Of a stretch of DNA of 51,437 bases, positions 24,501 to 45,012 are shown in pieces; positions within the stretch are counted from its first letter, which is position 1, and the number at the start of each line of letters is the position of its first letter. The stretch covers positions 1-51,437 of the forward strand of contig JACQAC010000057.1 of NCBI GenBank assembly GCA_016195245.1. Direction: 5' to 3'. The notes under the pieces are model-generated. The model ran no database searches and was not told where the DNA came from. It saw only the letters and a list, made by a program, of their open reading frames with translations. The translations under genes were made by a program, and so were the position numbers. The stretch is from Pseudomonadota bacterium (GTDB lineage Bacteria > Pseudomonadota > Alphaproteobacteria > Caulobacterales > Aquidulcibacteraceae).

Positions 24501-25169
24501 GTGGCGAGAGTATTGATCGTCGAAGACGATCTGAGAACAAGTGAGCTCCTGCGCAGCGGCCTGGCGGAAGCCGGGCACGCCGTGGAAGCGGTGGGCGACG
24601 GTGAGCTTGGCCTCGCAGCGATCCAGGCTGCGCCATTTGATCTTATCATCCTCGACGCGCTGTTGCCGAAGAGAGATGGATGGCAAGTTCTCGAAGAGCT
24701 GCGCCGACAAGGGTGTCAAACGCCGGTCCTCATGCTCTCGGCGCTCGATGGCATTCAACACAGAGTGCGAGGTTTGTCCCTTGGCGCGGATGACTATCTA
24801 ACCAAGCCGTTCTCCTTCGAAGAACTGAACCTACGCGTCAACGCCATCTGCCGTAGACTTTCTCGTGCAGAAACCAGCGGTCTCGGTAACGCCGATGTTG
24901 CACTCGACGAGGCGAACTTGAGCGCGCTGCGAGATGGAGAAGTGATCTCCCTCACCATGAAGGAATTTGCCCTCCTGAAACTGTTGCTGACCTATCAAGG
25001 AGCAATCCTGTCGAAGCAATATATCGCCAAGCAGGTGTGGGACATCGAGGTGGACTCGGAAAGCAACGTCGTTGAGGTAAATATCAGACGGCTTCGACAA
25101 AAACTCGACGATCCGTTTGCCAAAAAGCTCATCTACACCTTACGCGGTCGAGGATATGTCCTCCGCTAG
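24501..25169 (+). CDS. OmpR-family response regulator (CusR/CopR-like)
   Basis: LIVEDD, LIILD, GADDYLTKPFSFEEL, SNVVEVNIRRLRQKLDDPF..KLIYTLRGRGY. Confidence 0.93.
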   Translation: MARVLIVEDDLRTSELLRSGLAEAGHAVEAVGDGELGLAAIQAAPFDLIILDALLPKRDGWQVLEELRRQGCQTPVLMLSALDGIQHRVRGLSLGADDYLTKPFSFEELNLRVNAICRRLSRAETSGLGNADVALDEANLSALRDGEVISLTMKEFALLKLLLTYQGAILSKQYIAKQVWDIEVDSESNVVEVNIRRLRQKLDDPFAKKLIYTLRGRGYVLR

Positions 25170-26592: not shown

Positions 26593-26615
26593 CCCTTCAG
26601 TGCTGGGAAGGTTGA

Positions 26616-28283
26616 ATGAACGCCGGGTCGGTTAGACATTTGCTATCAAGAGCCGCCCTTCGCGCCGACGCTGGCGGCGACGGTTCGGCGCTCGTATTGC
26701 TTCGTTCAGCGCTAATAGAGACCGATGCGTCGCAACATGAACCGATCGCGCTGGCGCTTCGTCGCATTGAAGCGATTGCGGCCGCCGGCATCGCCGAAGA
26801 GCCCTGCAGCTTGGATGAAGTCTTGGAAGAACCGCCGCCTCTTGTCGACGCGACCCTCGCGGCGGCGGTGACGAAGCTTTGCAGCTGGGCGGAGCGCGTT
26901 TGGGCAAGCGAAGAACGCCTGGCTTACTTGAGGCGGCGCGCCGCCACCGAAGGCGGACGCTCTCCCTCGCTGGCGCTAGCCCTTAGCGCCTCCGCTCAAA
27001 GCCTCGCGCGAAACGGACGCTTCGAAATCGCGGTGCCGCTTTGTACGGAGGCGGTGTCGATGTGGTGCAAGCTGATCGATGGCGGCGCCACTCTCCTCGC
27101 AGCGAGGCTAGCGGATTCGCTCCGGTTGCTCGGCGCCGTCGAGTCAGAGCGGGGAAACCTCGAGAAGGGTGTGAGCCTCGGCGCCGAGGCGCGCGATCTT
27201 TTCCTCCGGGAGCTTGATCGGAACGATCGCATCCAAAATCGAATGGGGCTGGGCGCTGCCTTGCATAATCTGGCCGGTGCTTACCTCAAGACAGGTGATG
27301 TTTCGCGCGCAGTCGCCGTGTCGAACGAGGCTATCGCGGTGCGTCGATTGCTCGCCGTGCAGGCGCCAATGGTCTGCGGTTTAGATATGGCGCGCACGTT
27401 GTCGGAGGCGAGTGTGGTGTTCGGCCACGCGGAGCTTTTTGACGACGCGTTTTCTGTCAGCCAAGAGGCGACGGAATTTTTCCGTACCGCCTCGTTAGCG
27501 GAAGTGGCCTATCTGAATCCGTTAGCGACTGCGCTTCGCAATCTGTCGCAGCATGCTTTTGCCGTTGGGCAATACGCTGTTGGTCTTGACGCCACAGATG
27601 AGGAGATTGCGATTTATCGTCGTCGCGGTCATCACGAGGGAAATGATACAACGACCGCACTCGCTGGTGCTCTACACAACAGAGCGTCGCATTTGGCGAT
27701 GTTGGCGCAGAACGAAGAAGCGCTCAAGAGCGTGTCCGAAGCCATTGACACGCAAAGGAGTGCATCAGGCGCGTCGGCGCGTCGGGCCGCCATGGGAGCG
27801 TCGATGCATCTGGCGGGGATTGTCGCGCATCAAGCTGGCCGCGAGGAGGAGGCTTTGGATCGTCTCGCGGAAGCGGTGAAAGTTCGCAACACATTGCGCG
27901 TCGGTGGAGATGCTGAGGCGCAGGTGGACTACGCGCGCTCCTGCAGCGAGCTAGCGGATGCACAATGCGCTGCGGGGCAGTGGGCATTGGCGGTCGAGAC
28001 CAACGAAGAGGCGGTCGCTGCAATGTCCGCGGTCATGCGCCTGCGCGCCAGCAAGTCTGATGTATTCGAATACGCGCGCCTACTCTTGCAAACCGGCAAT
28101 TTGCAGCGCCGCGTTGGCCGGATTAGCGCCGCGATTAGGTCTTATGAGGCCGTGGCGGCGCTGCGCTCGCAATTGCAGGAAATGGAGTTGGACGGAGCTT
28201 TGGCGGACGTTGCCGCGCAACGTTTGATTTCCTGCCTCAGGCGATCGAACGGCGCGAGTGCTGGATCAACGCCGCACACCTGA
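26616..28283 (+). CDS. Tetratricopeptide-repeat protein
   Basis: Repeated LA.AL.NL....G..A...EA...R.L helical units; 23 nt after the kinase, same strand. Confidence 0.75.
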   Translation: MNAGSVRHLLSRAALRADAGGDGSALVLLRSALIETDASQHEPIALALRRIEAIAAAGIAEEPCSLDEVLEEPPPLVDATLAAAVTKLCSWAERVWASEERLAYLRRRAATEGGRSPSLALALSASAQSLARNGRFEIAVPLCTEAVSMWCKLIDGGATLLAARLADSLRLLGAVESERGNLEKGVSLGAEARDLFLRELDRNDRIQNRMGLGAALHNLAGAYLKTGDVSRAVAVSNEAIAVRRLLAVQAPMVCGLDMARTLSEASVVFGHAELFDDAFSVSQEATEFFRTASLAEVAYLNPLATALRNLSQHAFAVGQYAVGLDATDEEIAIYRRRGHHEGNDTTTALAGALHNRASHLAMLAQNEEALKSVSEAIDTQRSASGASARRAAMGASMHLAGIVAHQAGREEEALDRLAEAVKVRNTLRVGGDAEAQVDYARSCSELADAQCAAGQWALAVETNEEAVAAMSAVMRLRASKSDVFEYARLLLQTGNLQRRVGRISAAIRSYEAVAALRSQLQEMELDGALADVAAQRLISCLRRSNGASAGSTPHT

Positions 28284-28296
28284 GCAAGAGCCGCTT

Positions 28297-29598
28297 TCAA
28301 GCGGTGCCGTATTTGGTCTGAATGTTAATCCCGATGCTGCGAAGAAAATCAGTCGGCAATACGCCGCCTGCGCAAATGATCACGGCATCATTCGGAAAAT
28401 GACGCTGACGACCGTTGCGTTCAAGAAGGACGTTTTCCGGTTCGATCTGAATGATGTTGGTCGACAGCAATAGTCGAAGCGCGCCGCTTTCGGCCGCGCG
28501 CGCGATGCGCTCTCGGTTGCGTGGCTTTGCGCGTCCGAGAGCCGCGCCGCGATAGGCCAAGATCACCTCCGCGTCCGTTTCCTCGACCAAGGAGGCGGCC
28601 GCCTCAAGCGCGCTATCGCCGCCTCCGACGACGAGAACGCGCATCCCCGCATATTGTTCGGGGTCGATGAGACGATAAACCACGTGGGGCAGATCTTCTC
28701 CGGGTACGTCAAGCGCACGGGGAGTTCCCCGCCGGCCGATCGCGAGCAATACGCTGCCGGCGCGCACTTCACGCTGCGTGGTTGCGATGGAAAAGACGCC
28801 GCTGACATCTTCGATGCGCGTTACCCGTTCGTCGTAGATGATGTTTGCTCCGCTATCGCGCACGACGTTGGACCAAAATTCCAAGAGCGATTCCTTGTTG
28901 ATCTCGCGAAATTTGACCTCGCCATAACCGGGCAAGGTCGCTGGCTGGGTCATAACGAGCTTGTTGCGGGGAAAATGCGCAACCGTTCCGCCGAAAGTTT
29001 CCTGTTCGATCGTAAGATAGTTCAAGCCGTGTTGCTGTGCGGCGAGACTGGCTGAAATGCCGGCGGGGCCGGCGCCGACAATAACGAGGTCGTAGTCTGC
29101 GCCGTGGGCGCGGGGCAAACGGGCGATCTCATCGACGGCCTGACGGCCTTGTTCGATGGCATTGCGGATGAGGCCCATTCCGCCCAGCTCGCCAGCGATG
29201 AAGACGCCCGGGACGTTGGTTTGAAAATCAGGTCCAACATGCGGCAATTCAATGCCGCGTTTTTCGGTCCCAAACACCAGTTGGATTGCATCGACCGGAC
29301 ATGCGGTCCGGCATGCGCCGTGGCCGATGCATTCTGTAGGGGAAATCAGTACCGCCTTTCCGCTAATGCGGCCCAGCACATCGCCTTCGGGACACGCCGC
29401 TACGCACGCGCCACAGCCAATGCACTTCAACGGATCGATCTTTGGATGCAGCGACGTGGGCTGATCCAGGCCCGCTTCAAGCGCTGCCTCGCGGGCAAGA
29501 CGCGCTTCGTTCTCGCGCCGTCCGCGCCGCACAATGTAGAAGCCCACAATGCCAACAAGCGGAAGAACGTACCAAAGCAAGCTTGGGTCAAGCGCCAT
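28297..29598 (-). CDS. Membrane-anchored ferredoxin-domain FAD/NAD(P)H oxidoreductase (thioredoxin-reductase-like fold)
   Basis: N-terminal TM; CIGCGACVAACP and CIGHGACRTACP; IVGAGPAG (FAD) and VVGGGDSA (NAD(P)H) motifs. Confidence 0.88.
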   Translation of the reverse strand: MALDPSLLWYVLPLVGIVGFYIVRRGRRENEARLAREAALEAGLDQPTSLHPKIDPLKCIGCGACVAACPEGDVLGRISGKAVLISPTECIGHGACRTACPVDAIQLVFGTEKRGIELPHVGPDFQTNVPGVFIAGELGGMGLIRNAIEQGRQAVDEIARLPRAHGADYDLVIVGAGPAGISASLAAQQHGLNYLTIEQETFGGTVAHFPRNKLVMTQPATLPGYGEVKFREINKESLLEFWSNVVRDSGANIIYDERVTRIEDVSGVFSIATTQREVRAGSVLLAIGRRGTPRALDVPGEDLPHVVYRLIDPEQYAGMRVLVVGGGDSALEAAASLVEETDAEVILAYRGAALGRAKPRNRERIARAAESGALRLLLSTNIIQIEPENVLLERNGRQRHFPNDAVIICAGGVLPTDFLRSIGINIQTKYGTA

Positions 29599-29608
29599 TG
29601 GCGTAGCC

Positions 29609-30778
29609 TCAGGCCCCCGGAACGTTCAACTCAGTGGCGGCGGCGCGCAGACGCTGCTGGGCTGCTCCATCGCCGTTGAACGCGCGCAATGCAGATTGCA
29701 GCGCGGCGCCCGCGCGATCGGCCTGCCCGAGCACCATGCGCGAACGCATCAGACGCACCCATCCGTCCGCGTCACGAGGGTTCTGGGCCAACCGTTGTTC
29801 CAGGCCGTCCACCATTCCCGCGATCATTTGCTGTTGCGCTTCCGGCGATGCCTGCTGCGCCTGAGCAACAACGCCCGCGGACAGCGGAGGCGCGCGCGAG
29901 AGGGATGCCGCCGGCGCTGGCGGCATCCGCCCTGCGATGTTCAAGCCAATCTGACGCGCTGCGGTTTCGGCGCTCTCCCGCATGCGCGGCGCCCATTGCG
30001 AGTCTGGCGCAGCAGCGCGAACGCCCGCAATCCAATCGTCAATCGCACCGCGCGCGTCGCCGCTCTGAGATTTCGCGAGAGCGAGATAATAGCGTGCTCG
30101 CTCGTCATGTGCATCGCGAGAAAGAGCGGTTTGAAAATCCTGGCGCGCGGCCGCTGTGACTGAGCCGCCATTGGCTTGCGTGACCGCCTCGGCGAGCGCG
30201 GACTTGTAGCTTGCTTCCTGTGGCGCGAGAGCGACCGCCCGGCGGTATGCGTCGACAGCCTCCGGGAAGTGATTGGTTTCAAAATAAGACCAGCCGAGCA
30301 TGCGCCAGCCTTCCGCATCGTTGGGCGAGCTCTCCAGCCGCGCGCGCAAACGCTGGATCATGGTGTCAACGTCAGGGAGTGATTGCGCGGCGGCCGCGGC
30401 CGGCGCGGCGTCGGCGCCGCGAGCGGCGCTTTGCATTTGTGGTGCGCCGGTCGCGGCATAGAGTACAGCCGATCCTAGCACGACAATGAGCGCCACAGCG
30501 GCGGCGGTGACGCGGTCGAACTGAGCGCTTGCGGGAGACGCGACAGGGGCGGCGGGGGGTGCTTCGAGAATGCGCCGTTCGACTTCGGTGCGCAACTCAA
30601 CCGCCGCACTGGCATCGACATCGCCTGCTGCTTCGTCGCGCGCGATCGCATCAAGTTGCGCCTTGTAAACATCCACGGACGTCGCCGCGGCCGGTGGAGC
30701 GCGGCGCGTACGCAGAAATGGCAATGCAACAAGCAAGCCGGCACACACAGCGAGTGCGGTCAGCGCAAACCAAAGCAT
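29609..30778 (-). CDS. ccmI: Cytochrome c biogenesis protein CcmI/CycH
   Basis: N-terminal TM, VYKAQL..I.RD...G, second TM, TPR region (PNDAEGWRMLG), LAQNPRDADGW. Confidence 0.9.
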   Translation of the reverse strand: MLWFALTALAVCAGLLVALPFLRTRRAPPAAATSVDVYKAQLDAIARDEAAGDVDASAAVELRTEVERRILEAPPAAPVASPASAQFDRVTAAAVALIVVLGSAVLYAATGAPQMQSAARGADAAPAAAAAQSLPDVDTMIQRLRARLESSPNDAEGWRMLGWSYFETNHFPEAVDAYRRAVALAPQEASYKSALAEAVTQANGGSVTAAARQDFQTALSRDAHDERARYYLALAKSQSGDARGAIDDWIAGVRAAAPDSQWAPRMRESAETAARQIGLNIAGRMPPAPAASLSRAPPLSAGVVAQAQQASPEAQQQMIAGMVDGLEQRLAQNPRDADGWVRLMRSRMVLGQADRAGAALQSALRAFNGDGAAQQRLRAAATELNVPGA

Positions 30779-31266
30779 CAGGAAACTCCAGTCCCAGGGG
30801 GCGGCTGCTTCGCATTCGTCAGCAGCTGATTCAGTCGGCGGCGCTCGTCAGCGCTAAGAGGCGGCGGCGCTGCTTCGCTTCGCCTGCGGACCTGGGAGAA
30901 AAGACCCAGAAGTGCCAGCGCAAAGATGGCAAACGGCGCGATCCAGAGCGCCCAAGTATCAGGTTGCCAGGGCGGACGCAGCAAGACGAAGTCACCGTAC
31001 CGGGCGACGATGTAGTCGATCACTTGCCGATCGCTATCACCCGCCATCAGGCGTTCGCGCACCAAGAGACGCATGTCGTGCGCAAGCGGAGCGTTGGAAT
31101 CGTCAATTGTCTGGTTCTGACAAACGACACAGCGCAGGTGCTCGCTGATGTCGCGTGCCCGCGCCTCAAGCGCCGGATCGCGCAACATCTCCGAGGGCTC
31201 AACGGCGAGTGCAGGCGCGGCCATCACGAAGAGGCAAACGGCAAGAATTGGCTTGAGCAATTTCAT
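30778..31266 (-). CDS. ccmH: Cytochrome c biogenesis protein CcmH/CycL
   Basis: LRCVVCQNQTIDDSNAPLA, RYGDFVLLRPP. Confidence 0.95.
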   Translation of the reverse strand: MKLLKPILAVCLFVMAAPALAVEPSEMLRDPALEARARDISEHLRCVVCQNQTIDDSNAPLAHDMRLLVRERLMAGDSDRQVIDYIVARYGDFVLLRPPWQPDTWALWIAPFAIFALALLGLFSQVRRRSEAAPPPLSADERRRLNQLLTNAKQPPPGTGVS

Positions 31267-31799
31267 GGCTCATTCTCAAGCTGGGTCATAATCGGCTCGA
31301 TCGTCTGTTGCCACACCTCCGGTGTTATTGGGCCGACTTGTTTGAACCGAATCCTGCTGTGACGGTCCAGGATAAAGGTCTCCGGCGCCCCAGTGACACC
31401 AAGTTCAAGCGCAAACCGACCGCTCTCGTCGCTGCCGATGCGTGTAAACGGGTCGCCGGCCTGCGCCAGATACGCCCGGCAGTCGGCGGGCGATTCCTTC
31501 CAATTGATCCCGTAGATCGGAACATGTCGTTCGCTTGCGAGCGCGACGAGCGTCGGATGCTCCTGACGGCAAGGACCGCACCACGACGCAAACACATTCA
31601 CCAGCACGACCTGTCCTCGAACGTCATTGCTGACGAATTCGGCGTCTCCCTGACGCACAGGTGCCAGCGTGAACTGTGGCATTGGCTGGTTGATCAATGC
31701 AGACGGCAGGATCGAAGGGTCGTGATCAAGGCCGAACCAGAACGCCGTCGCAACCACCACAAAGAGTCCGACGGGAATGAACAAGATCAAGCGGTTCAT
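31263..31799 (-). CDS. ccmG: Thiol:disulfide interchange protein CcmG/DsbE
   Basis: Start MNRLILF (ATG 31799), LPSALI, NVFASWCGPCRQEHP, GVTGAPETF. Confidence 0.93.
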   Translation of the reverse strand: MNRLILFIPVGLFVVVATAFWFGLDHDPSILPSALINQPMPQFTLAPVRQGDAEFVSNDVRGQVVLVNVFASWCGPCRQEHPTLVALASERHVPIYGINWKESPADCRAYLAQAGDPFTRIGSDESGRFALELGVTGAPETFILDRHSRIRFKQVGPITPEVWQQTIEPIMTQLENEP

Positions 31800-33778
31800 G
31801 GCGATGTGGCAGCCGCCATGACCGCCGACTTCGCGGAAGCCGTTGTCGCAGAACGCAGCCCGCCGGACCAGGAGAGCGCGCCTCCGAGCGCCATGATCGC
31901 GGCGCCCAGCCAAATCCAAATCGCCAGTGGGTGGCGATAGAGCCTCACCGTCCACTTGCCATCGTCGCCACGCTCACCAAGGGCGGCATAGGTATTGGCG
32001 ACTAAGTTGCTGCGCACCGAAGCCTCCGTCGTTTGCATCTCGCGATCGGGGTAAAAGCGCCGCTCTGGCGTTAGAAGAAATGCGATATCTTCTCCGTGTG
32101 AGAAGGAGAGCACCGAGCGTTCGGCTTCGTAGTTCGAGCCTGTACCGGTCGTCACTGACAGCATCTGCACGTCGTAGCCCGCGAAGCGCAGGCTTTCGCC
32201 GGGTTGCAGGCTGGAAGTCAGTTCCTGCTTCCAGGCATTGGCCGCCACGAGCCCCGCCAGCAACAGACCGACCCCCAAATGCGCGAACACAACGCCGTAA
32301 ACCGTGCGGGGTAGGGCAAGCGCGAGGCGCGTGGACTCAAGCCAGGGCGCTTTGCCAATGCGAATGCGTTTGGCGACGATCGAGACCGACGCGGCCATGA
32401 TCCAAACCGCCAGGGCGATGCCCACGGCAGCGACTGGTGTGCGTGCGCCGGTAAGCACCAGCGAGATCAAGCCCGCAAGGGCGCCGGCAATTGCCGCCCA
32501 ACCCAATTTCCGCAGACCATTGGCGAGCGTATCGCTGCGCCACTTCAGCATTGGCCCCACTGCCATGCCGGCAAGAACGGGCGCGACGAGCGGCACGAAG
32601 GTCAGCGCATAGAAAGGGGCGCCAACCGAAATTCTATCGCTTCCTAGAAGCTCGATCAGCAGCGGATAAAATGTGCCGATAAAAACCGTGGCCATAGCCG
32701 TCACGATCAGCGCGTTGTTGAGGATCAAGCTTCCTTCGCGGCTGACGATGGAGAAGGGCGCGCCAGATCTGAGATTGTTGGCGCGCAGTGCGTAGAGCAG
32801 CAGGCCGCCGCCGGTCGCGACGCCAAGCAGAAGTAGGATGAAGACGCCGCGTTGTGGGTCGACCGCAAAGGCATGCACGCTCGTCAGCACGCCCGAGCGC
32901 ACGACAAAGGTGCCGATGAGGCTGAGCGAGAACGTCAATATGGACAGCAGCAACGTCCAGCGAACAAAGGATTCGCGTCTTTCCATCACGAGAGCGGAGT
33001 GGAGCAGTGCGGTGCCAAGCAGCCACGGCATCAGAGAAGCGTTCTCGACCGGGTCCCAGAACCACCAGCCACCCCAGCCGAGTTCGTAGTACGCCCACAA
33101 CGACCCAAGCGCGATGCCAGTCGTCAAGAACACCCACGCAGCGAGAATCCACGGCCGCGCGTGGCGCGCCCACGCAGCATCGGCGCGCCCCTCAAGCAAA
33201 GCGGCGACGGCAAATGAAAAGGCTGTCGAGAACCCAACATAGCCAAGATAAAGCATCGGAGGATGCGATGCGAGGCCGGGGTCTTGCAGGAGAGGATTGA
33301 GCCCGTTTCCTTGCAACGGCGCCGGATCCAACCGCGCGAACGGGTTCGACGTGAAGATCAGGAACGCAAGAAAGCCGACGCCAATGAGCCCCTGCGTCGC
33401 CAACACACGCGCGCGCATCGTTGATGGAATAGTGCGGCCAAGGAGGGCTACCGTCGCGCCGAACACCGCCAGGATCAGCACCCAGAGCAGCATCGAGCCT
33501 TCATGGTTTCCCCAGGTGCCGGCAAGTCTGTAGATGAGCGGCTGGCTCGTGTGGGAATTGGTGGCGACCACCTCAACGGAGAAGTCGGAGACCGCGAAAG
33601 AGATCATCAAGCAGCCGAACGCGACTCCAACGAAGAAAAGTTGCGCTATCGCGCCGACATCGCCGAACGCCATCGCGCGCGCATCGCGCCGCGCTGCGCC
33701 GATCAGCGGCAGGATCGTTTGCGCGAGCGCAATCATCAACGCCAGAATCAACGCGAAGCGCCCGATCTCTGGAATCAT
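31796..33778 (-). CDS. ccmF: Heme lyase subunit CcmF
   Basis: WGNHEGS, HPPMLYLGY, WAYYELGWGGWWFWDPVENAS, SVHAFA. Confidence 0.97.
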   Translation of the reverse strand: MIPEIGRFALILALMIALAQTILPLIGAARRDARAMAFGDVGAIAQLFFVGVAFGCLMISFAVSDFSVEVVATNSHTSQPLIYRLAGTWGNHEGSMLLWVLILAVFGATVALLGRTIPSTMRARVLATQGLIGVGFLAFLIFTSNPFARLDPAPLQGNGLNPLLQDPGLASHPPMLYLGYVGFSTAFSFAVAALLEGRADAAWARHARPWILAAWVFLTTGIALGSLWAYYELGWGGWWFWDPVENASLMPWLLGTALLHSALVMERRESFVRWTLLLSILTFSLSLIGTFVVRSGVLTSVHAFAVDPQRGVFILLLLGVATGGGLLLYALRANNLRSGAPFSIVSREGSLILNNALIVTAMATVFIGTFYPLLIELLGSDRISVGAPFYALTFVPLVAPVLAGMAVGPMLKWRSDTLANGLRKLGWAAIAGALAGLISLVLTGARTPVAAVGIALAVWIMAASVSIVAKRIRIGKAPWLESTRLALALPRTVYGVVFAHLGVGLLLAGLVAANAWKQELTSSLQPGESLRFAGYDVQMLSVTTGTGSNYEAERSVLSFSHGEDIAFLLTPERRFYPDREMQTTEASVRSNLVANTYAALGERGDDGKWTVRLYRHPLAIWIWLGAAIMALGGALSWSGGLRSATTASAKSAVMAAATSP

Positions 33779-33893: not shown

Positions 33894-34790
33894 ATGAGTA
33901 GTGACAGCGCCCTCGCGGGATCGGTAAGCGTAACGCGCGCCAGGCGTCGCTTTGATGACGGGCCAATTGCGCTTGTCATTTTTGTTATCTGCGTTGTCGG
34001 CGTGCTGTATTTGGCTTGGCAGCATCGCGGTGAGAGTTGGTTGGACCCTCGCCATGGGTGGGGTTACCCGCTTGGAATCGTCGGCGGATCGATGATGCTG
34101 GCGTTGCTGCTTTACCCTCTGCGCAAGCGCGCCAAGTCAATGCGAACTTTGGGGAGCGTGGCGACGTGGTTTCGCTTGCACATGATCCTCGGCATTGTTG
34201 GGCCCGTCTTGGTCGTTGTTCATTCCAACTTTGAAATTAAGTCGCTCAATGCAGCTGTCGCGCTGTATTCCATGTTGATCGTGTCTGGGAGCGGCATAGT
34301 CGGACGGTACTTTTACGGACGCATCCATCGAGGCCTGTACGGCAGCAAGGTTGAGGCGCGTGAACTGATTGCTGAGGCGCAAGGGTTTCGCCGAGACATG
34401 GATGTCGATGTCAGGGCGGCGGCGCAAAATGTTGTCCTTGCCGCCTTGGAGCGCGAGGCGATGACCCAATCCCGCGGCTTCTTCTCAGCGGTGGCGCATG
34501 CAGTTTCTCTTAACGTACATGCCGCACGCAGCGAGCGGGAACTCATTGCCGACTGCGATCGCGAGTTGGAAAGCTGGGCGAGCCAGGAACGCTGGCCGGC
34601 TCGTGTGCGATCCAGGCGGATAGCAGAAGCGCATCGCAAGATACGCCGCTACCACGACGCGGTGCGCCGGGTTGGATCGCTTGCGGTTTACGAGCGCCTA
34701 TTTTCGGCGTGGCACGTACTCCACTTGCCTTTGTTTTTCATGCTGATCCTCACCGCGCTCATTCACGTCGTCGCGGTTCACCTTTATTAG
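33894..34790 (+). CDS. Inner-membrane protein, cytochrome-b/ferric-reductase-like (His-rich TM helices)
   Basis: About five TM helices; WFRLHM, VVHSNF, SGIVGRYFY, WHVLHLPL, IHV. AGGAGG upstream of ATG 33894; alternative GTG at 33861. Confidence 0.75.
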   Translation: MSSDSALAGSVSVTRARRRFDDGPIALVIFVICVVGVLYLAWQHRGESWLDPRHGWGYPLGIVGGSMMLALLLYPLRKRAKSMRTLGSVATWFRLHMILGIVGPVLVVVHSNFEIKSLNAAVALYSMLIVSGSGIVGRYFYGRIHRGLYGSKVEARELIAEAQGFRRDMDVDVRAAAQNVVLAALEREAMTQSRGFFSAVAHAVSLNVHAARSERELIADCDRELESWASQERWPARVRSRRIAEAHRKIRRYHDAVRRVGSLAVYERLFSAWHVLHLPLFFMLILTALIHVVAVHLY

Positions 34791-34798
34791 CGGCGCAA

Positions 34799-36364
34799 AT
34801 GCGGTGGATACTACGTCTAGCAGCCGTCCTGATCGCGGCGATGACGCTGTTTGGCGTAGCCCAGGCGCAATCCGTTATAGAGCGGCTCGTTTCGCCAGGA
34901 CCCCTCGCGGCCGCGCACGCAAACGTCGAGGGGCGTTGCGCGTCGTGTCACGCGCCATTTAACAGAACAGCGCAAGCGCAACTCTGTGTCACGTGCCATC
35001 GACCGATCGGCGCAGATCTCGCTGCTCATACCGGCTTTCATGGGCGCGACCGCGCGGCTTCGACAGCAAGCTGCGGTTCATGCCATTCGGATCACCACGG
35101 GCGCGCGAACGCACTGGTGCGGTTCGATGCTCGAACCTTCGATCACACGCAAACCGATTATCCTCTTCACGGCGCCCACGCGAGTGTGACGTGCGTGTCC
35201 TGCCATCCGGTTGGCCGCAAGTACCGGCTCGCATCAACGGCGTGCGTCGACTGCCATCGAACAGACGAACCCCACCACGGACGCCTCGGTGTGCGCTGCA
35301 GTTCATGCCACACAGACGAGAGCTGGCATCAAATTCGGTTTGATCACTCGAGCACGCAATTTCCTTTGGTGGGCGCCCACCTGCGCGCGCGATGCGTTAC
35401 CTGCCACGCCAACGAGCGCTACGACGGCACGCCTACAACGTGCGTCGCGTGTCACCAGAGTGACGACGCGCACCATGGAAGTCTCGGTCCGAATTGCGGC
35501 GAGTGCCATTCCGCCGTCGATTGGCACGCGCAACGCTTTGACCACAGCCGAACGCGCTTTCCATTGAGAGGGCGTCACGCTGCAATTCAGTGTTCGGCGT
35601 GTCACGCGCAGCCCGCGGGACAAGTGCGCCTGCCAACGGACTGCCTATCGTGCCATCGCGCTGACGATCAGCGTGCGCACCAGGGGCATAACGGCGCCGC
35701 CTGTCAGGAATGTCATTCAGAGACAGACTGGCGGCGCTCCAACTTCGATCACACGCGGCAGACGCAGTTTCCACTCCGCGGGCGGCATGCCGGCCTGACC
35801 TGTCAGCAGTGTCACGTTCAGCCGGCTCGGCAGGTGCGCCTCGCGATGACCTGCATATCTTGCCATCGCGCCGATGATGCGCACGCCGGTCAGGAGGGCG
35901 CGCAATGTGAGCAGTGTCATAGCGACGCCGGCTGGACGACCTCGGTGCGTTTTGACCATGGACTGACGAGGTTTCCCCTCATTGGCGAACACGCCAGCGC
36001 CACATGTGCGTCTTGTCATCAAACACGTCGCTTCAAAGATGCTCCGGAGCAGTGTGTAACGTGCCACCGCGATGACGATCGCCACGAAGGACGGCTCGGA
36101 GTGAACTGCGGCGCGTGCCATAACCCCGTCGCGTGGGCCCGTTGGTCGTTTGACCATGATCACCAGACGCATTTTCCTCTGACCGGTGCGCACGCAGGCC
36201 TGCAATGTGAAGCGTGTCATACGCAGCGCATGCGTGATCGCGTCCATCAATCGGATGCCTGCATTACTTGTCACCGGGCTGACGATGCGCACCGCGGCGA
36301 GTTCGGACCCGAGTGCGGCCGCTGCCATACCACCGAGATGTTCCGCGGCGCGCGGCGTTTGTAA
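34799..36364 (+). CDS. Exported multiheme cytochrome c, 21 CXXCH
   Basis: Signal peptide MRWILRLAAV...AQA; 21 CXXCH counted by hand, in seven tri-heme units linked by FDH..T.(F/Y)PL.G.H. Confidence 0.95.
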   Translation: MRWILRLAAVLIAAMTLFGVAQAQSVIERLVSPGPLAAAHANVEGRCASCHAPFNRTAQAQLCVTCHRPIGADLAAHTGFHGRDRAASTASCGSCHSDHHGRANALVRFDARTFDHTQTDYPLHGAHASVTCVSCHPVGRKYRLASTACVDCHRTDEPHHGRLGVRCSSCHTDESWHQIRFDHSSTQFPLVGAHLRARCVTCHANERYDGTPTTCVACHQSDDAHHGSLGPNCGECHSAVDWHAQRFDHSRTRFPLRGRHAAIQCSACHAQPAGQVRLPTDCLSCHRADDQRAHQGHNGAACQECHSETDWRRSNFDHTRQTQFPLRGRHAGLTCQQCHVQPARQVRLAMTCISCHRADDAHAGQEGAQCEQCHSDAGWTTSVRFDHGLTRFPLIGEHASATCASCHQTRRFKDAPEQCVTCHRDDDRHEGRLGVNCGACHNPVAWARWSFDHDHQTHFPLTGAHAGLQCEACHTQRMRDRVHQSDACITCHRADDAHRGEFGPECGRCHTTEMFRGARRL

Positions 36365-36382
36365 GGTTTGTTATCTTACAAA
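36358..36382. promoter_or_regulatory. Candidate regulator-binding palindrome, copy 2 (upstream of the second cytochrome)
   Basis: TTTGTAAG-N9-CTTACAAA perfect 8-bp arms; near-identical to the reverse complement of 24322-24342. Confidence 0.55.
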
Positions 36383-36518
36383 GATTTTCGCGCAGCATCC
36401 ACGCGCGCTGAGTTAGGGTCATGTTAAGCGGACTCGAAAAGAGTCACCGACGTCGTTGTCGGGGGAGAGGTCGAACGACGCGGGGTTCGATCGCAGGAAG
36501 AAGTTCGGTAGGCGCTGC

Positions 36519-38423
36519 ATGGGAACTGCACTCCCTATTGCGAAGCGATTGCAAGAATGGGTGCGCGGGTCCGCGCGCCTTGTTCCCGTTCTCTTGCTCG
36601 TGTTGACCGCGCTTGCGTTTGCTGACGTTTCCGCAGCGCAGACGCGTGGGCGCCCGCAGGCGAGTTTCGACCATGACAGAACCGGTTTTTCGCTGACGGG
36701 CGCGCACCGGCGCTTGAATTGCACTGAGTGTCACGCGAACGGTGTGTTCACGGATGCGCCCAATACTTGCGCGGGTTGTCACAACGGCTCACGCGCGATG
36801 GGTCGTAGCGCAACGCACGTGCCGACGACGCAGCAGTGCGGCGCATGTCACGGTACCGAAAACTATCGGCTGATCCGCTTCGAGCACAGCGAGGCGATTG
36901 GCACCTGCGTGTCTTGCCACGACGGACGCCGCGCAGGAGGCAAACCGGCCAACCATCCGCAAACGAGCAACGATTGCGAGTCCTGCCATACGACCGGAAT
37001 ATGGACGAGCGCTCGGTTCGATCACTCCGGCGTCACGGCGGCTTGTGCGAGCTGTCACAACGGCCGCGATGCGTCGGGCAAGCCCGCAAATCACGTGCCC
37101 TCGAGCAACACCTGTGAAGACTGCCACACCACGGCGACCTGGGCGAACGCGCGCTTTGATCACGCGAGCGCCACGGGGACATGCGTAAGCTGCCACAATG
37201 GTACATCCGCGACGGGGCGCTCACCGTCGCACTTGTCGACCACGACATCCTGTGAAAGCTGTCACGTCACCACGAATTGGACGACGGTCCATTTTGATCA
37301 TACTGCGGCGACCGGCACTTGCGCGAGTTGCCACAACGGGACTCGTGCTCCGGGCAAGCCGGCGAACCACATTCCCTCAAGCACGACATGTGACGATTGC
37401 CATACGACCACGACTTGGGCGAACGCGCGCTTTGACCACGCGAGCGCTACGGGGACTTGCGCAAGTTGCCACAATGGCACGACCGCCACCGGTAAACCCG
37501 CAACCCACTTGCCGACGACAAACGCGTGTGACGACTGCCATGTGACGACCAACTGGACGACTGTTCGCTTCGACCATGCCGGGGTCACCGGAACCTGCGT
37601 GAGTTGTCACAATGGAACGACGGCCGCAGGGCGATCAGCCAATCACCTGCCTACGACGACAACGTGCGACGATTGTCACGTCACAACCAATTGGACGACA
37701 GTGCATTTTGATCACGCGAGCGCCGTCGGCACCTGCTTCAGCTGTCATGATGGGACGCGCGTTGCGGGCAAGCCCGCCAATCACATGGCGACGAGCAACA
37801 CCTGCGATGATTGCCATGTCACGACGAGCTGGACAAACGTCCGATTTGACCACAACGGCGTCACTGGTTCGTGCGCGAGCTGCCATAACGGCACGACGGC
37901 AACGGGTAAGACGCCAACGCACATTCAGACCTCCGCGGATTGCGGCGATTGTCACTCGACACTTGCCTGGACGCCCGCCCGGTTTGACCACGCGTCGATA
38001 ACTGGCTCGTGCGCAACCTGTCACAACGGTTCGTCGGCGACGGGACGGCCAACCAATCACTTCACCACCTCGCTGGGCTGTGAGGATTGCCACCTCACAA
38101 CGGCGTGGACGCCGATCGTATTCCGCCACACATCGCCAGATTATCCGGGCGATCACCGGAGCAGCGTAACCTGCGTGATGTGCCACCGCAGCAATGCGCA
38201 GACGATTGCTTGGCCGAACGCCGCGTACGCGCCGGATTGTGCAGCCTGCCACGCCAACAACTATCGCTCCGATCCTCATACCAAGTACGGCAACGTGCGC
38301 TACACGGTTAGCGAACTGCGCGACTGCGCGGGCGCGTGCCATATCTACAGCGACAGTTCGATGACGACGATCCTGACGCGCCGAAATTCCCACCACAGGG
38401 CCAGCGACGGCGGATTCGATTGA
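36519..38423 (+). CDS. Exported tandem-repeat multiheme cytochrome c, 23 CXXCH plus 1 CXXXCH
   Basis: Hydrophobic signal (LVPVLLLVLTALAFADVSAA); ten 46-aa di-heme repeats; terminal CAGACH. Start uncertain (ATG 36519 chosen). Confidence 0.95.
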   Translation: MGTALPIAKRLQEWVRGSARLVPVLLLVLTALAFADVSAAQTRGRPQASFDHDRTGFSLTGAHRRLNCTECHANGVFTDAPNTCAGCHNGSRAMGRSATHVPTTQQCGACHGTENYRLIRFEHSEAIGTCVSCHDGRRAGGKPANHPQTSNDCESCHTTGIWTSARFDHSGVTAACASCHNGRDASGKPANHVPSSNTCEDCHTTATWANARFDHASATGTCVSCHNGTSATGRSPSHLSTTTSCESCHVTTNWTTVHFDHTAATGTCASCHNGTRAPGKPANHIPSSTTCDDCHTTTTWANARFDHASATGTCASCHNGTTATGKPATHLPTTNACDDCHVTTNWTTVRFDHAGVTGTCVSCHNGTTAAGRSANHLPTTTTCDDCHVTTNWTTVHFDHASAVGTCFSCHDGTRVAGKPANHMATSNTCDDCHVTTSWTNVRFDHNGVTGSCASCHNGTTATGKTPTHIQTSADCGDCHSTLAWTPARFDHASITGSCATCHNGSSATGRPTNHFTTSLGCEDCHLTTAWTPIVFRHTSPDYPGDHRSSVTCVMCHRSNAQTIAWPNAAYAPDCAACHANNYRSDPHTKYGNVRYTVSELRDCAGACHIYSDSSMTTILTRRNSHHRASDGGFD

Positions 38424-38430
38424 GGTCCTT

Positions 38431-40611
38431 ATGCGTTATATGAAGTCACTCGGGACTGTGACGGCTGGTGCGGCCGCTCTTGCGTCCGTTGCTCCCTCCG
38501 CCCTGGCTCAGCCAGCGCTGGATCGGGTCTTGTCGGACGCGACGGTGGAAGAGGGGCAGCACTGCGCTGTCTTGCAGGTCAACTTCAATTTCCCCGTTCG
38601 CTATCTCAGTCACTTTCCGGTTTCGAGCGGCGATGACTTGCGCGTGCGCATCCGTGCAGCTGACCGCGATCACGACAGCGCCATGCAACATCGTGAGGCG
38701 GTGCGGCCCCCGGAAAGTCAGCTCGCTCATATCAGCGAAATCCAGTTTGACGGCGACCGCCCAGACGGGGCGACGTTGTCTTTCCAGTTCGGCGCATCAA
38801 CCCAGTATCGCGTAGGCCAAGGGCCAGACTTCCGCAGCATCCGGGTTGCTATCAACGATGGCGTGGACGCGGCCTCATGTTCGCCGGAGTCCCACCCAAG
38901 TCTACCAAACGGCGCCGCCGCGGCGGTGTCACAACCAACGCCAGTGACCGTGCCGCAGGTCGACGTTGGAGCGGGCGATCCGCTCCTCACGGAGGCTCGC
39001 GCGGCCATGACGGCGGGCGACAACGCCCATGCCGTGCAGTTGCTCACGCGCATTTTGGAGGCGCCAGACTCGCCGAGTTCGCGGGATGCGCAGGAATTGC
39101 TTGGCGTGGCGCGCGAACGCGCGGGTCAACGTGCGCACGCTCGCGCGGAATATGATGAATACCTGCGCCGCTATCCAACCGGCGAAGGTGCGGATCGCGT
39201 GCGCCAACGTTTGGCCGCGCTTGTGGCAATGGATATGCCTCAGCCGAGGCCAGAGCTGCGTCGCGCCGGACGGCAGGAGCGGCGAGGCGGGGCGCAGTGG
39301 GAAGCAAGCGCAAGCTTGTCGCAAATCTACTTCCGGGACGATGCGACCTACACCTACGAAGATTTGTTTGGACCGCCGTCGCCGACCACGACGGATCACC
39401 AAACGAACCAGAACGAACTTCTGTCTGCCCTTGATGCTGACGTGGCAATTGCAACCAACTCCGTCCATGCGCGCCTGCGCGCCTCTGGGGCCTACAGCAA
39501 CGATTTCAGGGCCGGCGGCAAAGACGAAACCAGTTTGAGCGCGCTCTATTTGGAAGTTGGCGACGCCCAAGACCGGTTGGTCGTTCGAGGGGGGCGCCAA
39601 ACCCGCAGCACTTCGGGAGTGTTCGGTCGCTTCGATGGCGGCGTGGTTTCGCTGCGTCCAATGGATCGCATCAGAGTCGATGTTATTGCCGGTTATCCGG
39701 TGGATACACCGCGCGATCTCACGTTTGATCCGCACCGTTCTTTCTACGCGGCCAGCGTCGACTACCAGGGCGAGAAATGGGACGCCAGCGTCTATTGGCT
39801 TCGTCAGACGTCGTACGGGTTTGTCGATCGCAACGCGGCAGGCGTGGAGCTGCGTTATGTGAGCGATCGGATGAACCTGTTCGCGCTCGCGGACTATGAT
39901 GTTCACTATAATGAACTCAATATCGGACTCGCGAACGCGACGTTCACGCTCCCCGGCGATACAACACTCAATCTCGGCGTCGACTATCGCAAGGCGCCGA
40001 TGCTGGCGACGATCAACGCATTGATTGGACAGACGGTTGGCTCTCTGGACGAACTGCGCGCGACCTACACGGACACCGAGATTGAACAGCTTGCGTTGGA
40101 TCGTACTGCCCAGAGCACAACCTACTTTGCGGGGATCGCGCACCCGATCAGCCAACGCTTTTCGATCAATGTTGACGCGACGCTTTCGAACTTGGATGGC
40201 ACTCCCGCGTCCGGCGGCGTTCCTGCGACGACCGCAACCGGTCAAGAATTATACGGCTCCATCCAGCTTATCGGCACCAGCCTTTTCAAGGAGGGCGATC
40301 TCGGCATTATCGGCCTGCGCTACGCCGACACGTCGACTTCGGTGCGGTATGGATTTGACCTTAACACACGCTACCCCGTGAGCCGTGCGCTTAAGATCAA
40401 TCCGCGGTTCCGGTTGAGCTACCGGGAAAACAAGAACGACAATGGCACCCAGTTGTCGGCTCGCCCCTCGTTCAGGCTGAATTACCAAGTCGGGCATCAC
40501 GGATCGCTGGAAGCGGACGTAGGCGCCGAATGGCAACGCACCTCAAACTCATCGATGCGTGAAGAGAGCTGGGATTATTTTGTGACGGCTGGCTACCGGT
40601 TGGATTTCTAG
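38431..40611 (+). CDS. Outer-membrane beta-barrel protein with N-terminal periplasmic and TPR domains (putative conduit porin)
   Basis: Signal peptide; TPR ([30 protein letters not shown]); long region of alternating beta-strands; C-terminal GYRLDF with terminal Phe. Confidence 0.82.
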
Positions 40612-40624
40612 GACCGGAGTCGTT

Positions 40625-41851
40625 GTGAGATCTCAAGACCTGCAGGTATTCGAAGCGGCGGTTGGCGCTATCCGTGAGGAGGGGCGTTACCGGGTGTTCG
40701 CCGACATCATGCGCGAGCGCGGGCGTTTCCCGCACGCGACATTGCGGCGCGAGGACGGTTCGACCCGCGACATCGTGGTGTGGTGCTCGAACGATTATCT
40801 AGGCCAAGGCCAGAGCCCTGAAGTTCTGGATGCGGCGCATGCGGCGCTGGACAAGGTGGGCGCCGGGGCCGGCGGCACGCGCAACATTTCCGGCACCACC
40901 AGCTATCACGTCGATTTGGAGCGGGCGCTTGCCGAGCTTCACGGCAAGCAGACGGCGCTCTTGTTCACGTCGGGCTATGTGTCCAACGATGCGACGCTGT
41001 CGACGCTGGCGCAGCTTTTCCCCGATCTCTGGATTTTCTCCGATGAGCAAAACCACGCCTCGATGATCGAAGGCATCCGCCGCGCCAAGTGTGAGCGGCG
41101 GATATTCAGGCACAATGATCTTCAGCATCTGGAAGCGCTGATCAACGAGGCGCCAGCCGAGGCGCCGAAGCTGATCGCCTTCGAGAGCGTCTATTCGATG
41201 GACGGCGACACGGCCCCGATCGAAGCCATTTGCGACATCGCTCAAGCCTATGGCGCGATGACCTATCTGGATGAAGTGCATGGGGTTGGGCTTTACGGCC
41301 CCACCGGCTGGGGCGTCGCCGAGCGTGACGGGGTGATGCACCGGGTTGACTTCATCGAAGGCACCCTCGCCAAGGCGTTTGGCGCGATGGGCGGGTATGT
41401 CACCGGCCCGGCGGCGGCGATGGACGCTATCCGCTCCACGGCTTCGGGGTTTATCTTCACCACCTCGCTGGCGCCGTCGATCGCGGCGGCGGCGCTGGAG
41501 AGCGTGCGCATCGTGCGCGAGTGCCCGCACCTGCGCGACCGCTTGGCCGAACGCGCGGAGCGCTTGAAAACCATGCTGTTCGAGGCCGGCATTCCGGTGA
41601 TGTCGGAATCGACCACCCACATCGTGCCGGTGTTGGTGGGCGATGCGGCGCGCTGCAAGAAGATCTCCGACATCCTGCTCTATGACCACGGCATTTATGT
41701 GCAGCCGATCAACTATCCGACGGTGCCCAAGGGTACTGAGCGGCTGCGTATTACGCCGTCGCCCTTCCACGACGATGCGTTGATGGAGCGCCTGGTGGCT
41801 TCGCTCAAAGCGGTTTGGGCGATGTGTCCGGTGCATACCTCAGCGCCTTGA
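40625..41851 (+). CDS. hemA: 5-aminolevulinate synthase
   Basis: [63 protein letters not shown]. Confidence 0.97.
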
Positions 41852-42063
41852 GCGCGGACGCTCCAGACGAGGTTATTTTCGAAATCACCAAGATTGGTGA
41901 CGTGCAGCGGGTCGCGGTGGTGCATGTCGCCACCGGTACAGAGGTTGTGTTTCAGACGCCAGCGACCGCGGCGCTCGCCGATCTGCGGGCGCTTGGCAGG
42001 CAATTGCTCAAGCGGAAACTCGCGGAAGGCGATCAGCCGAAAGGGGCTGGCATCATTGTCTAG
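41848..42063 (+). CDS. Small hypothetical protein (DUF6898-like)
   Basis: EVIFE...IG...RVA.V...TGTEV; probable TTG start overlapping the hemA stop. Confidence 0.6.
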
Positions 42064-44051: not shown

Positions 44052-44462
44052 ATGCGTTGCCCCTTCTGTCAGAACGAAGACACTCAGGTGAAGGACAGCC
44101 GTCCGACCGAAAGCGGCGACGCCATTCGTCGCCGCCGCCAATGCGACAAATGCGAGTCGCGCTTCACCACTTTCGAGCGCGTACAATTGCGTGAGCTGAC
44201 TGTACTGAAGAGGTCGGGGCGGCGCGTCCCGTTCGACCGAGAGAAGCTCGAGCGGTCGGTGTCAGTGGCCCTGCGCAAGCGGCCGATCCACGACGACCAG
44301 GTTCAACAGATGATTTCGGGCATTGTCCGCAAACTGGAGAGTTCCGGAGAAAGCGAGAGTTCGCCCACACGTCACATTGAAGCTGGCGACTTCGCTCGAC
44401 GGGCGCATTGCGACCGCCTCGGGCGAAAGCCGCTGGATCACGGGGGAGGAAGCGCGTGCTGA
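44052..44462 (+). pseudogene. nrdR: Transcriptional repressor NrdR, truncated after ~102 codons and continuing out of frame into ribD
   Basis: [29 protein letters not shown] are intact; the conserved VAYVRFASVY segment is absent. Confidence 0.85.
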
Positions 44463-45012
44463 GGTGCATAAGCTGCGCGCAAGTGTCGACGCGGTGATGA
44501 TCGGCGCCGAAACCGCACGCCGAGACAACCCCTCGCTGCTAGCGCGTACCAACCCACCGCCCGCGCGGCAGCCAAAGCGTGTGGTTCTTACGCGCAGCTT
44601 CGACCTACCAACGAGCGGCAGGCTGTTCGACCAATTGGATCTGTCTCCGCTGATTATCATCGGAGAGGAATCGAACGCACGATCCAAAGCGCTGGCTGCT
44701 GCTGGCGCACAGGTAGGCACTGTTGTGGACACGATGGACGGGCGCGGTCCGGAGCTGGCACTGCAGGCGCTCGGGTCCGTTGGCGTGCGTTCTGTGCTGA
44801 TAGAGGGTGGGGGCGTGCTGTCGGCCGGCGCGATTATGGCCGGCTTAGTGGATCGCCTGGAGTGGTTCCGAGCGCCAATCCTCCTGGGCGCAGAGGGGCG
44901 GCCTTCCGTCGCGGCGCTGGCTTTGGCGCGGCTTTCCGATGCGCCGGCGTTTCGCAGAGTTGCGGTTCGAGAGCTTGGACCCGATCTGTGGGAAGGCTAC
45001 GAGCGGGTCTGA
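44359..45012 (+). CDS. ribD: RibD reductase domain, with no convincing start codon
   Basis: [33 protein letters not shown]; no deaminase domain; the 5' end abuts the nrdR break. Confidence 0.75.

What the first reader, a model, noticed from the sequence alone, without database searches (positions are those of the whole stretch)
36519..38423. Strictly periodic 46-aa di-heme repeat cytochrome: a candidate length-tunable heme wire
Seen: from heme 2 to heme 21 the CXXCH motifs recur every 23 aa. The unit is C..CH-NG..A.GKP..H..T...-C.DCH-.T..W....FDH....G., repeated ten times (138 nt per unit). Each unit has two conserved extra His (P..H and FDH), one per heme, consistent with bis-His ligation. 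The protein is very Thr/Ser/Ala/Gly-rich and ends in a distinct cap with a non-canonical CAGACH. Inference: a rod-like electron conductor whose length evolves by repeat expansion, with a possible substrate-facing terminal heme.
Basis: partly seen in the sequence, partly recalled or inferred. Interest (0 to 1): 0.75.

Follow-up and report, generated by a model that had tools for sequence, protein, structure and literature searches.

The report
Repeat-built 24-heme PCC3 cytochrome wire
This gene encodes a real cytochrome built from ten repeated two-heme units whose number varies between close relatives; it is an ordinary member of the described but untested "PCC3" cell-envelope electron-wire clusters, which likely draw electrons from NADPH through a neighbouring flavoprotein.

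Summary
In detail: 23 CXXCH motifs, 19 consecutive 23-residue spacings, ten 46-aa units, one extra His per heme, and a terminal CAGACH. The units are old (40-78% DNA identity, longest exact repeat 20 nt), so the count is not an assembly artefact.

The gene is the 'extracellular' cytochrome of a PCC3 cluster: diheme-b membrane protein, 21-heme cytochrome, this protein, and a predicted 22-strand barrel. He 2017 already reported the repeats, the T/S/A/G bias and the wire idea; Hoover 2023 reported linear models and 10-35 hemes.

Added here:
- Homologues change length in two-heme steps (15-89 motifs; 58 of 59 odd), even between close relatives, while the partner cytochrome stays at 18-27.
- The CX3CH cap is conserved but absent in 9 of 59, and it carries a spare His, so a substrate-facing heme is not shown.
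- A membrane-anchored 2x[4Fe-4S] FAD protein sits beside the cluster in 40 of 41 well-flanked loci; complex prediction gave weak support only.

Best model: an outward NADPH-fed wire. This scan has found the same kind of cluster and reading before on other genomes. New member of a known kind.

The parts
36519..38423 (+). The finding: PCC3 'extracellular' multiheme cytochrome (MHC2), 634 aa, 23 CXXCH plus CAGACH; signal-peptide-like hydrophobic stretch at residues 21-39, no lipobox Cys
   Evidence: Pfam cytochrome c7/c3 and weak DmsE-family hit below cut-off
36768..38147 (+). Ten 46-aa (138-nt) di-heme units, hemes 2-21, each with two extra His
36666..36767 (+). N-terminal heme-1 module (FDH...F.L.G.H...CXXCH), the same motif type as the repeat of the upstream 21-heme cytochrome
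   Evidence: tblastn MHC1 against MHC2 E 2e-19
38148..38423 (+). C-terminal cap: two CXXCH, CX3CH and three conserved extra His (546, 587, 626); absent in 9 of 59 intact homologues
34799..36364 (+). PCC3 periplasmic cytochrome (MHC1), 521 aa from ATG 34799, 21 CXXCH in three-heme units, 21 invariant extra His
33894..34790 (+). PCC3 inner-membrane protein (IMP), 298 aa, five hydrophobic segments, two WX3HX13H and one SGXXG motif; predicted diheme b
   Evidence: motifs as defined in He 2017
38431..40611 (+). PCC3 outer-membrane protein, 726 aa: N-terminal beta domain, TPR domain, predicted 22-strand barrel, C-terminal Phe
   Evidence: AlphaFold pLDDT 89; fold searches
28297..29598 (-). Membrane-anchored 2x[4Fe-4S] plus TrxR/FNR-type FAD protein, 433 aa; constant companion of the cluster
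29609..33778 (-). Second, locus-linked cytochrome c maturation genes ccmF-ccmG-ccmH-ccmI, divergent from the IMP gene; other ccmF/H (C90) and ccmG-like (C57) copies lie elsewhere in the genome
40625..41851 (+). hemA (5-aminolevulinate synthase) directly after the barrel gene; one of two near-identical copies in this genome

Best explanation
The gene encodes the long outer cytochrome of a PCC3 cluster, a repeat protein of ten two-heme units that is predicted to form a linear, all bis-His heme wire and likely carries electrons outward from cytoplasmic NADPH. Proposed chain: NADPH -> FAD -> two [4Fe-4S] clusters (membrane-anchored flavoprotein, 28297-29598) -> two b hemes (IMP) -> 21-heme cytochrome across the periplasm -> this 24-heme protein in or beyond the 22-strand barrel -> an outside acceptor such as Fe(III), humics or O2. 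Shown: the repeat, the His count, gene content and order, length change in two-heme steps (partner: three-heme steps within 18-27), and co-inheritance of the flavoprotein. Inferred: the linear shape (about 1.8 nm per unit and 20 nm in all, scaled from MtrA's 80 A for 10 hemes), surface exposure, heme attachment at CX3CH, binding of flavoprotein to IMP, NADPH preference, direction of flow and the acceptor. The partner's narrow range would fit a fixed periplasm width; the sixfold range of this protein would fit a free end outside the envelope.
For: PCC3 gene order IMP-MHC-MHC-barrel matches Slit_1446-1449, and the IMP motifs are met. In 78 related loci: barrel 71, IMP 56, MHC1 56, flavoprotein 59; in the 41 with at least 7 kb on both sides: barrel 41, flavoprotein 40, IMP 36. 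Intact homologues have 15-89 CXXCH, odd in 58 of 59; MHC1 counts are multiples of three in 52 of 54. Relatives with 91-96% identical barrels have 19, 23 and 27 motifs with MHC1 fixed at 24 (L012, L016, L017, L034); L005 and L018 have 39 and 21. His balance: a His precedes 1437 of 1440 core motifs; capless forms have exactly one His per heme in 5 of 9 and one more in 4 of 9; MHC1 has 21 invariant His for 21 hemes in 17 sequences. Unselected genome samples (300 of the order, 400 of the phylum, overlapping): 7 of 7 genomes with a close IMP have the flavoprotein, and 7 of 8 with the flavoprotein have the IMP. All 5 distant IMP loci inspected have a homologous FAD/Fe-S gene directly upstream. A Bacteroidota plasmid has IMP, flavoprotein and two cytochromes in one run of genes. 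The flavoprotein has two ferredoxin motifs, GXGXXG, GGGDSA and YRG, is closest to YpdA/TrxR/FNR structures and is more conserved (50-76%) than IMP or barrel. Complex prediction IMP plus flavoprotein: weak support, 0.41 against best control 0.00; the mark was reached by 116 of 157 solved and 2 of 215 mismatched pairs, but at 0.60 or under by only 18 of 157 solved and by both mismatches; runs agree in at least 54% of contacts, partner pLDDT at least 77. In S. lithotrophicus ES-1 both PCC3 clusters went down on Fe(II) (Zhou 2022).
Against: No PCC3 component has been tested for function (stated in the CL21 preprint). My model of this protein was uninformative (pLDDT 41, pTM 0.21). There is no lipobox, and no export route to the surface is known; the barrel has 22 strands against 26 in MtrB. 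In ES-1 the 'extracellular' cytochrome Slit_1448 was not detected in any proteome while the other three proteins were. The flavoprotein gene is co-oriented with ccmF-G-H-I here and in many loci, so it could serve heme or thiol reduction for maturation. One genome (G104, 99% complete) has it without a close IMP. The IMP gene of one CL21 cluster rose when cells oxidised iron. Kin are not independent, and some sampled genomes may also be among the loci.
Confidence: 0.5

Rival explanations
1. Published model: PCC3 takes electrons in from Fe(II), minerals or other outside donors and passes them through the IMP to the quinone pool; the flavoprotein is incidental or serves maturation.
For: He 2017 model. 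PCC3 is common in Gallionellaceae iron oxidisers (26 complete clusters). The CL21 PCC3_2 IMP gene rose in iron-oxidising cells. The host has two heme-copper oxidases and a NarG-like enzyme as possible sinks.
Against: Both ES-1 clusters went down on Fe(II), and protein levels were similar across substrates. It does not explain why the flavoprotein follows the IMP across gene rearrangements and phyla and into the distantly related IMP family. No RuBisCO match in this 81% complete genome, which is weak evidence only.
Confidence: 0.2
2. The protein stays mostly in the periplasm or is trapped in the barrel like MtrA and acts as an electron store or periplasmic relay; repeat number drifts by unequal recombination and is not a selected reach.
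For: Ordinary signal peptide without lipobox here and in homologues read by eye. The 'extracellular' label is a prediction (He 2017; Hoover 2023 used PSORTb and LocTree3). Large length differences between close relatives (39 against 21; 43 against 21) fit weak constraint. An earlier scan note reports a SPOR-tethered variant (e1-3693358; not tested here).
Against: An 89-motif rod would be about 80 nm by MtrA scaling, too long to stand across a periplasm. The barrel gene follows it in 41 of 41 well-flanked loci. The partner cytochrome keeps a narrow range while this one does not.
Confidence: 0.2
3. The cap is a catalytic head: the CX3CH heme with a spare His forms an active site for a soluble substrate (O2 to superoxide, an oxyanion, an Fe chelate), and the repeats are only its stalk.
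For: A CX3CH is kept in 49 and a CX4CH in 1 of 50 capped homologues, with many invariant cap residues. All 50 have at least one His more than hemes, 15 exactly one. The locus has its own ccmF-G-H-I.
Against: 9 of 59 intact homologues end right after a core unit yet keep the cluster. A His surplus allows full bis-His ligation, so no open site is required. No structure supports a pocket.
Confidence: 0.1

Closest known systems
PCC3 porin-cytochrome cluster, 'extracellular MHC' (He et al. 2017, PMC5566968; Hoover et al. 2023, PMC10734462; ES-1 Slit_0867-0870 and Slit_1446-1449)
   Same: Four genes in the same order; IMP of about 300 aa with five helices, two WX3HX13H and SGXXG; 21-heme periplasmic partner (published median 21); T/S/A/G-rich repeat cytochrome with 26-28 aa per heme (published 22-39); 22-strand barrel (22 in L. 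cholodnii, supplementary Fig. 1 text).
   Different: Nothing essential. 23+1 hemes is below the published median of 34. The flavoprotein, own ccm genes and hemA are not in the four-gene definition. The two-heme and three-heme step rules and capped versus capless forms were not in the text I read. Reference PCC3 sequences were not aligned directly.
MtrCAB / MtoAB (Edwards et al. 2020, PMC7198977; PDB 6R2Q)
   Same: Barrel plus bis-His multiheme chain; MtrA is the only solved sequence match (E 7e-4); weak DmsE-family similarity (85 bits, cut-off 192).
   Different: Twice the hemes, strict tandem repeat, 22 rather than 26 strands, TPR and N-terminal beta domain on the barrel, no lipoprotein MtrC, and a cytochrome-b-type IMP in place of CymA.
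PCC4-type clusters (He et al. 2017, section 16)
   Same: A distantly related IMP; in five loci inspected it follows a homologous FAD/Fe-S gene and precedes a 6-10-heme cytochrome.
   Different: That flavoprotein is about 820 aa with cNMP-binding domains and another domain order; no long repeat cytochrome.
Ferric reductase / NADPH oxidase (FRD/NOX) architecture
   Same: Two HX13H pairs in a membrane domain (noted by He 2017) next to an FAD/NAD(P)H enzyme.
   Different: The flavin part is a separate TrxR/FNR-type protein with two Fe-S clusters, not the NOX dehydrogenase domain (NOX layout recalled); no Pfam match for the IMP. It may work like one; it is not a member.

Membership tests
PCC3 | Cluster of IMP, periplasmic MHC, extracellular MHC and porin in conserved order | tested here: met
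   33894-40611, all + strand; order as Slit_1446-1449; conserved in homologues
PCC3 | IMP about 300 aa, five TM helices, SGXXG and two WX3HX13H | tested here: met
   298 aa; five hydrophobic segments; motifs at 92, 133, 273; four His invariant in 42 sequences
PCC3 | Two very heme-rich MHCs, 22-39 aa per heme | tested here: met
   21 hemes in 521 aa; 23(+1) in 634 aa, 26-28 aa per heme
PCC3 | Extracellular MHC rich in T/S/A/G and built of heme-containing repeats | tested here: met
   43.7% T/S/A/G; ten 46-aa units
PCC3 | Outer-membrane beta-barrel | tested here: met
   AlphaFold pLDDT 89, 22 strands counted from residue 263 of the model on; best matches are outer-membrane barrels
PCC3 | Sequence homology to the ES-1 or Leptothrix reference proteins | not tested
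   Reference sequences were not fetched; the assignment rests on motifs, order and composition
PCC3 | Extracellular location and electron transfer | not testable with these tools
   Untested for any PCC3
MtrAB/MtoAB | DmsE-family decaheme cytochrome | tested here: not met
   23 motifs; TIGR03508 85 bits against cut-off 192
MtrAB/MtoAB | MtrB/PioB-family 26-strand barrel | tested here: not met
   No MtrB/PioB family hit in Pfam or NCBIfam; 22 strands in the model against 26
FRD/NOX | Ferric_reduct membrane domain with its own FAD/NADPH dehydrogenase domain | tested here: not met
   No Pfam hit for the IMP at E 0.01; the partner is TrxR/FNR-like

The most novel reading that the evidence does not exclude
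PCC3 is a five-part, quinone-independent export line: a split NADPH-oxidase-like module (Fe-S flavoprotein plus diheme-b IMP) feeds a periplasm-length three-heme-repeat cytochrome joined head to tail to a surface rod whose reach (about 13-80 nm) is set by the number of 46-aa di-heme units, with an optional CX3CH head. It would give aerobic heterotrophs a genetically length-programmable single-chain heme wire.
Probability: 0.35. Interest if true: 0.75.

Novelty: new member of a known kind. Interest (0 to 1): 0.3.

Why it matters
The gene itself is ordinary for its family. The family is an open question: it is widespread, holds some of the largest heme proteins known, and has no tested function or solved structure. 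This copy is small, regular and intact, so it suits a first structure of the 46-aa di-heme repeat and a test of distance against conductance with natural length variants. The constant flavoprotein partner turns the question of direction and electron source into a direct test (NADPH against quinol). It also argues against using PCC3 as a marker of iron oxidation.

Tried and rejected
Tandem Repeats Finder found no array at the gene; the units are too diverged. An assembly artefact in repeat number was rejected.

AlphaFold of the cytochrome with a 25-row alignment: pLDDT 41, no use for shape. Foldseek with that model gave no match under E 0.001; the only row was MtrA at E 7.4. Fold searches of the barrel gave generic barrels and TPR proteins; MtrB was not among the rows shown, which does not exclude it.

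Idea that this protein's first His completes the last heme of the 21-heme partner: rejected by counting, since MHC1 has 21 invariant His for 21 hemes and capless MHC2 balances alone. The head-to-tail junction itself was not modelled.

The '1 TGA' flag on the G104 flavoprotein is its normal stop; the 437-aa frame is intact. No RNA holder listed. No earlier notes exist on this genome. No RuBisCO match in an 81% complete genome does not show absence.

He 2017 Supplementary Table 4 gave only its legend, and Supplementary Figs 2-4 gave no text, so a mention of the flavoprotein there cannot be excluded. Protein-database homologue searches and the ESM Atlas were not used.

Full report
Observation. 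The ORF 36519-38423 encodes 634 aa with 23 CXXCH motifs and a CAGACH at residue 603. Motifs 2-21 are exactly 23 residues apart and form ten 46-aa units from 36768. Each unit has two extra invariant His, 16 residues after one motif start and 7 before the next. Shuffles gave at most 4 motifs in 10,000. The units are old: 40-78% DNA identity, 625 of 1108 same-residue codon pairs differ, and the longest exact repeat is 20 nt. An assembler cannot easily collapse or expand such an array, and contigs of public runs tile it without differences, though these may come from the source study. Units 3 and 5 (85% aa) and 4, 6 and 7 (67-76%) are the most alike, which fits duplication of internal blocks.

Surroundings. 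Upstream on the same strand lie a 298-aa five-helix membrane protein and a 21-heme cytochrome; downstream lie a 726-aa outer-membrane protein and hemA. Divergent from them run ccmF-G-H-I and a 433-aa protein with an N-terminal membrane anchor, two [4Fe-4S] motifs and a TrxR/FNR-type FAD domain. The outer-membrane protein folds with confidence (pLDDT 89) as a beta domain, a TPR domain and a barrel in which I count 22 strands. These two cytochromes are the only ORFs with more than two CXXCH in the 2.97-Mb, 81% complete genome, and the genome has further ccmF, ccmH and ccmG-like genes elsewhere. The closest named relative is a Terricaulis MAG (59-84% identity over the locus), so the host is likely an alphaproteobacterium of that kind. 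It has two heme-copper oxidases, a NarG-like enzyme and no RuBisCO match.

Identity. This is the PCC3 cluster of He et al. 2017 (PMC5566968; sections 15 and 16 read whole, other passages, and the text of two supplements). That paper defines the four genes and the IMP motifs, all met here. It also states the T/S/A/G bias, the heme-containing repeats, counts up to 85 and the wire hypothesis. Hoover et al. 2023 (PMC10734462; passages and supplement hits) report 10-35 hemes and long, mostly linear AlphaFold models.

Repeat number. A scan of GTDB genomes found 179 candidates, of which the best 80 gave 78 loci. Of 81 matching ORFs with 8 or more motifs, 61 were closed at both ends and began with the N-terminal module; I dropped two frame- or gap-broken ones (L056, L058), leaving 59. 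They have 15-89 CXXCH, odd in 58; the exception (L032, 22) has one 46-residue gap, a lost motif. Length therefore changes by whole di-heme units. The partner changes by three hemes: 52 of 54 closed ORFs are multiples of three, and 51 have 18-27 in such steps. Close relatives differ: barrels 91-96% identical go with 19, 19, 23 and 27 motifs while the partner stays at 24, and two Limimaricola loci have 39 and 21. Some loci are near-duplicates (L012/L013, L068/L069). Whether length is selected is not shown.

Ligation and cap. A His stands 6-8 residues before 1437 of 1440 core motifs. The 9 capless homologues have one His per heme (5) or one more (4). The 50 capped ones keep a CX3CH (49) or CX4CH (1) and always have at least one His in excess, exactly one in 15. 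Here 25 conserved His face 24 possible hemes. All hemes can be bis-His. The cap is conserved but not essential to the family, and nothing forces an open, substrate-facing heme.

Shape and location. My AlphaFold model was too poor to use, and no solved structure is close; MtrA is the only hit. Scaling from MtrA (80 A over 10 hemes; Edwards 2020, PMC7198977, passages) gives about 1.8 nm per unit, 20 nm here and 13-80 nm across homologues, if linear. The signal peptide has no lipobox, the barrel has fewer strands than MtrB, and the ES-1 counterpart was not detected in proteomes (Keffer, PMC11429942, passages). Surface exposure remains a prediction. The contrast between a narrow range for the partner and a wide range for this protein favours a free outer end.

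Electron source. The flavoprotein lies within the fetched DNA in 59 of 78 loci, in 40 of 41 with at least 7 kb on both sides, and in 52 of 56 that hold the IMP; three of the four misses are short contigs. In unselected samples of 300 order-level and 400 phylum-level genomes, 7 of 7 with a close IMP carry it and 7 of 8 carrying it have the IMP; six pairs share a contig. Five of five distant IMP loci that I inspected, out of 14 weak hits, have a homologous cNMP-containing flavoprotein gene directly upstream. An Emticicia plasmid has ccsA, IMP, flavoprotein and two cytochromes in a row. Complex prediction gave weak support: 0.41 against best control 0.00, with the mark reached by 116 of 157 solved and 2 of 215 mismatched pairs, but at 0.60 or under by only 18 solved and both mismatches; contact agreement was at least 54% and partner pLDDT at least 77. 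The GGGDSA and YRG motifs suggest NADPH (established knowledge of the TrxR family, recalled). Against this reading: the gene often ends the ccm operon and could serve maturation, G104 has it alone, and the IMP gene of one CL21 cluster rose in iron-oxidising cells (bioRxiv 10.1101/2025.02.27.639646, passages). For it: both ES-1 clusters fell on Fe(II) (Zhou 2022, PMC8788666, passages).

Novelty. I found no paper linking the flavoprotein to PCC3: searches (listings only, apart from the papers named), and no 'FAD', 'flavo' or 'pyridine' in the He 2017 main text. Subscription papers and picture-only supplements were not visible. Earlier agents of this scan reached the same PCC3 assignment and the same flavoprotein reading on other genomes. 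I had written both down before seeing them; they are not independent support.

Verdict. A real and correctly described repeat, a new member of a known but untested kind. Interest 0.3. The NADPH-fed, length-variable wire reading has probability about 0.35 in its full form and would deserve 0.75.

Noticed in passing
window 40626-41860; G000 contigs C16 (end) and C121 (start): hemA is present in two near-identical copies collapsed in assembly: C16 ends in its first 140 nt and C121 starts with its last 126 nt, both 100% identical; contig depth doubles over the gene and there are loose ends at both edges. The join from the PCC3 locus through hemA to glyA may be chimeric. The barrel-hemA side is also seen in relatives.
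   Followed up: partly
L077:13640-21977 and L046:6080-12547: Giant homologues: at least 117 CXXCH (cut by the locus end) as a second copy in a Sneathiellales MAG, and 89 in an Omnitrophota MAG; both exceed the 85 given by He 2017.
   Followed up: no
L005, L018, L029, L035, L040, L045, L048, L049, L054: Capless forms that stop a few residues after a core heme, in Rhodobacteraceae, Sphingomonadales and others; natural controls for the role of the CX3CH cap.
   Followed up: partly
L080, L081, L082, L087, L088: PCC4-like loci in the same order: an FAD-cNMP-Fe-S protein of about 820 aa directly before a distant IMP and a 6-10-heme cytochrome with an FHA-like domain (L081).
   Followed up: partly
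L089 (NC_018749.1, 78197-89995): Emticicia plasmid operon ccsA, IMP, flavoprotein, 23-heme and 40-heme cytochromes, hypothetical protein, with an ECF sigma factor divergent; the cytochrome spacings differ from the 23-residue repeat.
   Followed up: partly
L079:9810-11123 (G104): Intact flavoprotein gene at a contig end beside ribosomal-protein-operon genes, with no close IMP found in that genome.
   Followed up: partly
G000:C150:2501-2746: An 82-codon piece 55% identical to the barrel's C-terminus, not in a long ORF; likely a relic of a second cluster.
   Followed up: partly
window 44052-45012: nrdR matches only profile positions 1-102 of 147 and the overlapping ribD only its reductase half; this looks like a deletion or mis-assembly between them.
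   Followed up: no
window 24501-28283 and 1557-4342: A heavy-metal-type two-component pair and a TPR protein flank the locus, and copA/copB-type genes lie at the window start. GC3 is 0.63-0.74 across 24.5-40.6 kb against 0.77-0.80 for lepA, the M3 peptidase and hemA, but glyA and thiL are also low, so this is only a weak hint of acquisition. The cluster is patchy in the genus: a close IMP in 0 of 23 other genomes.
   Followed up: partly
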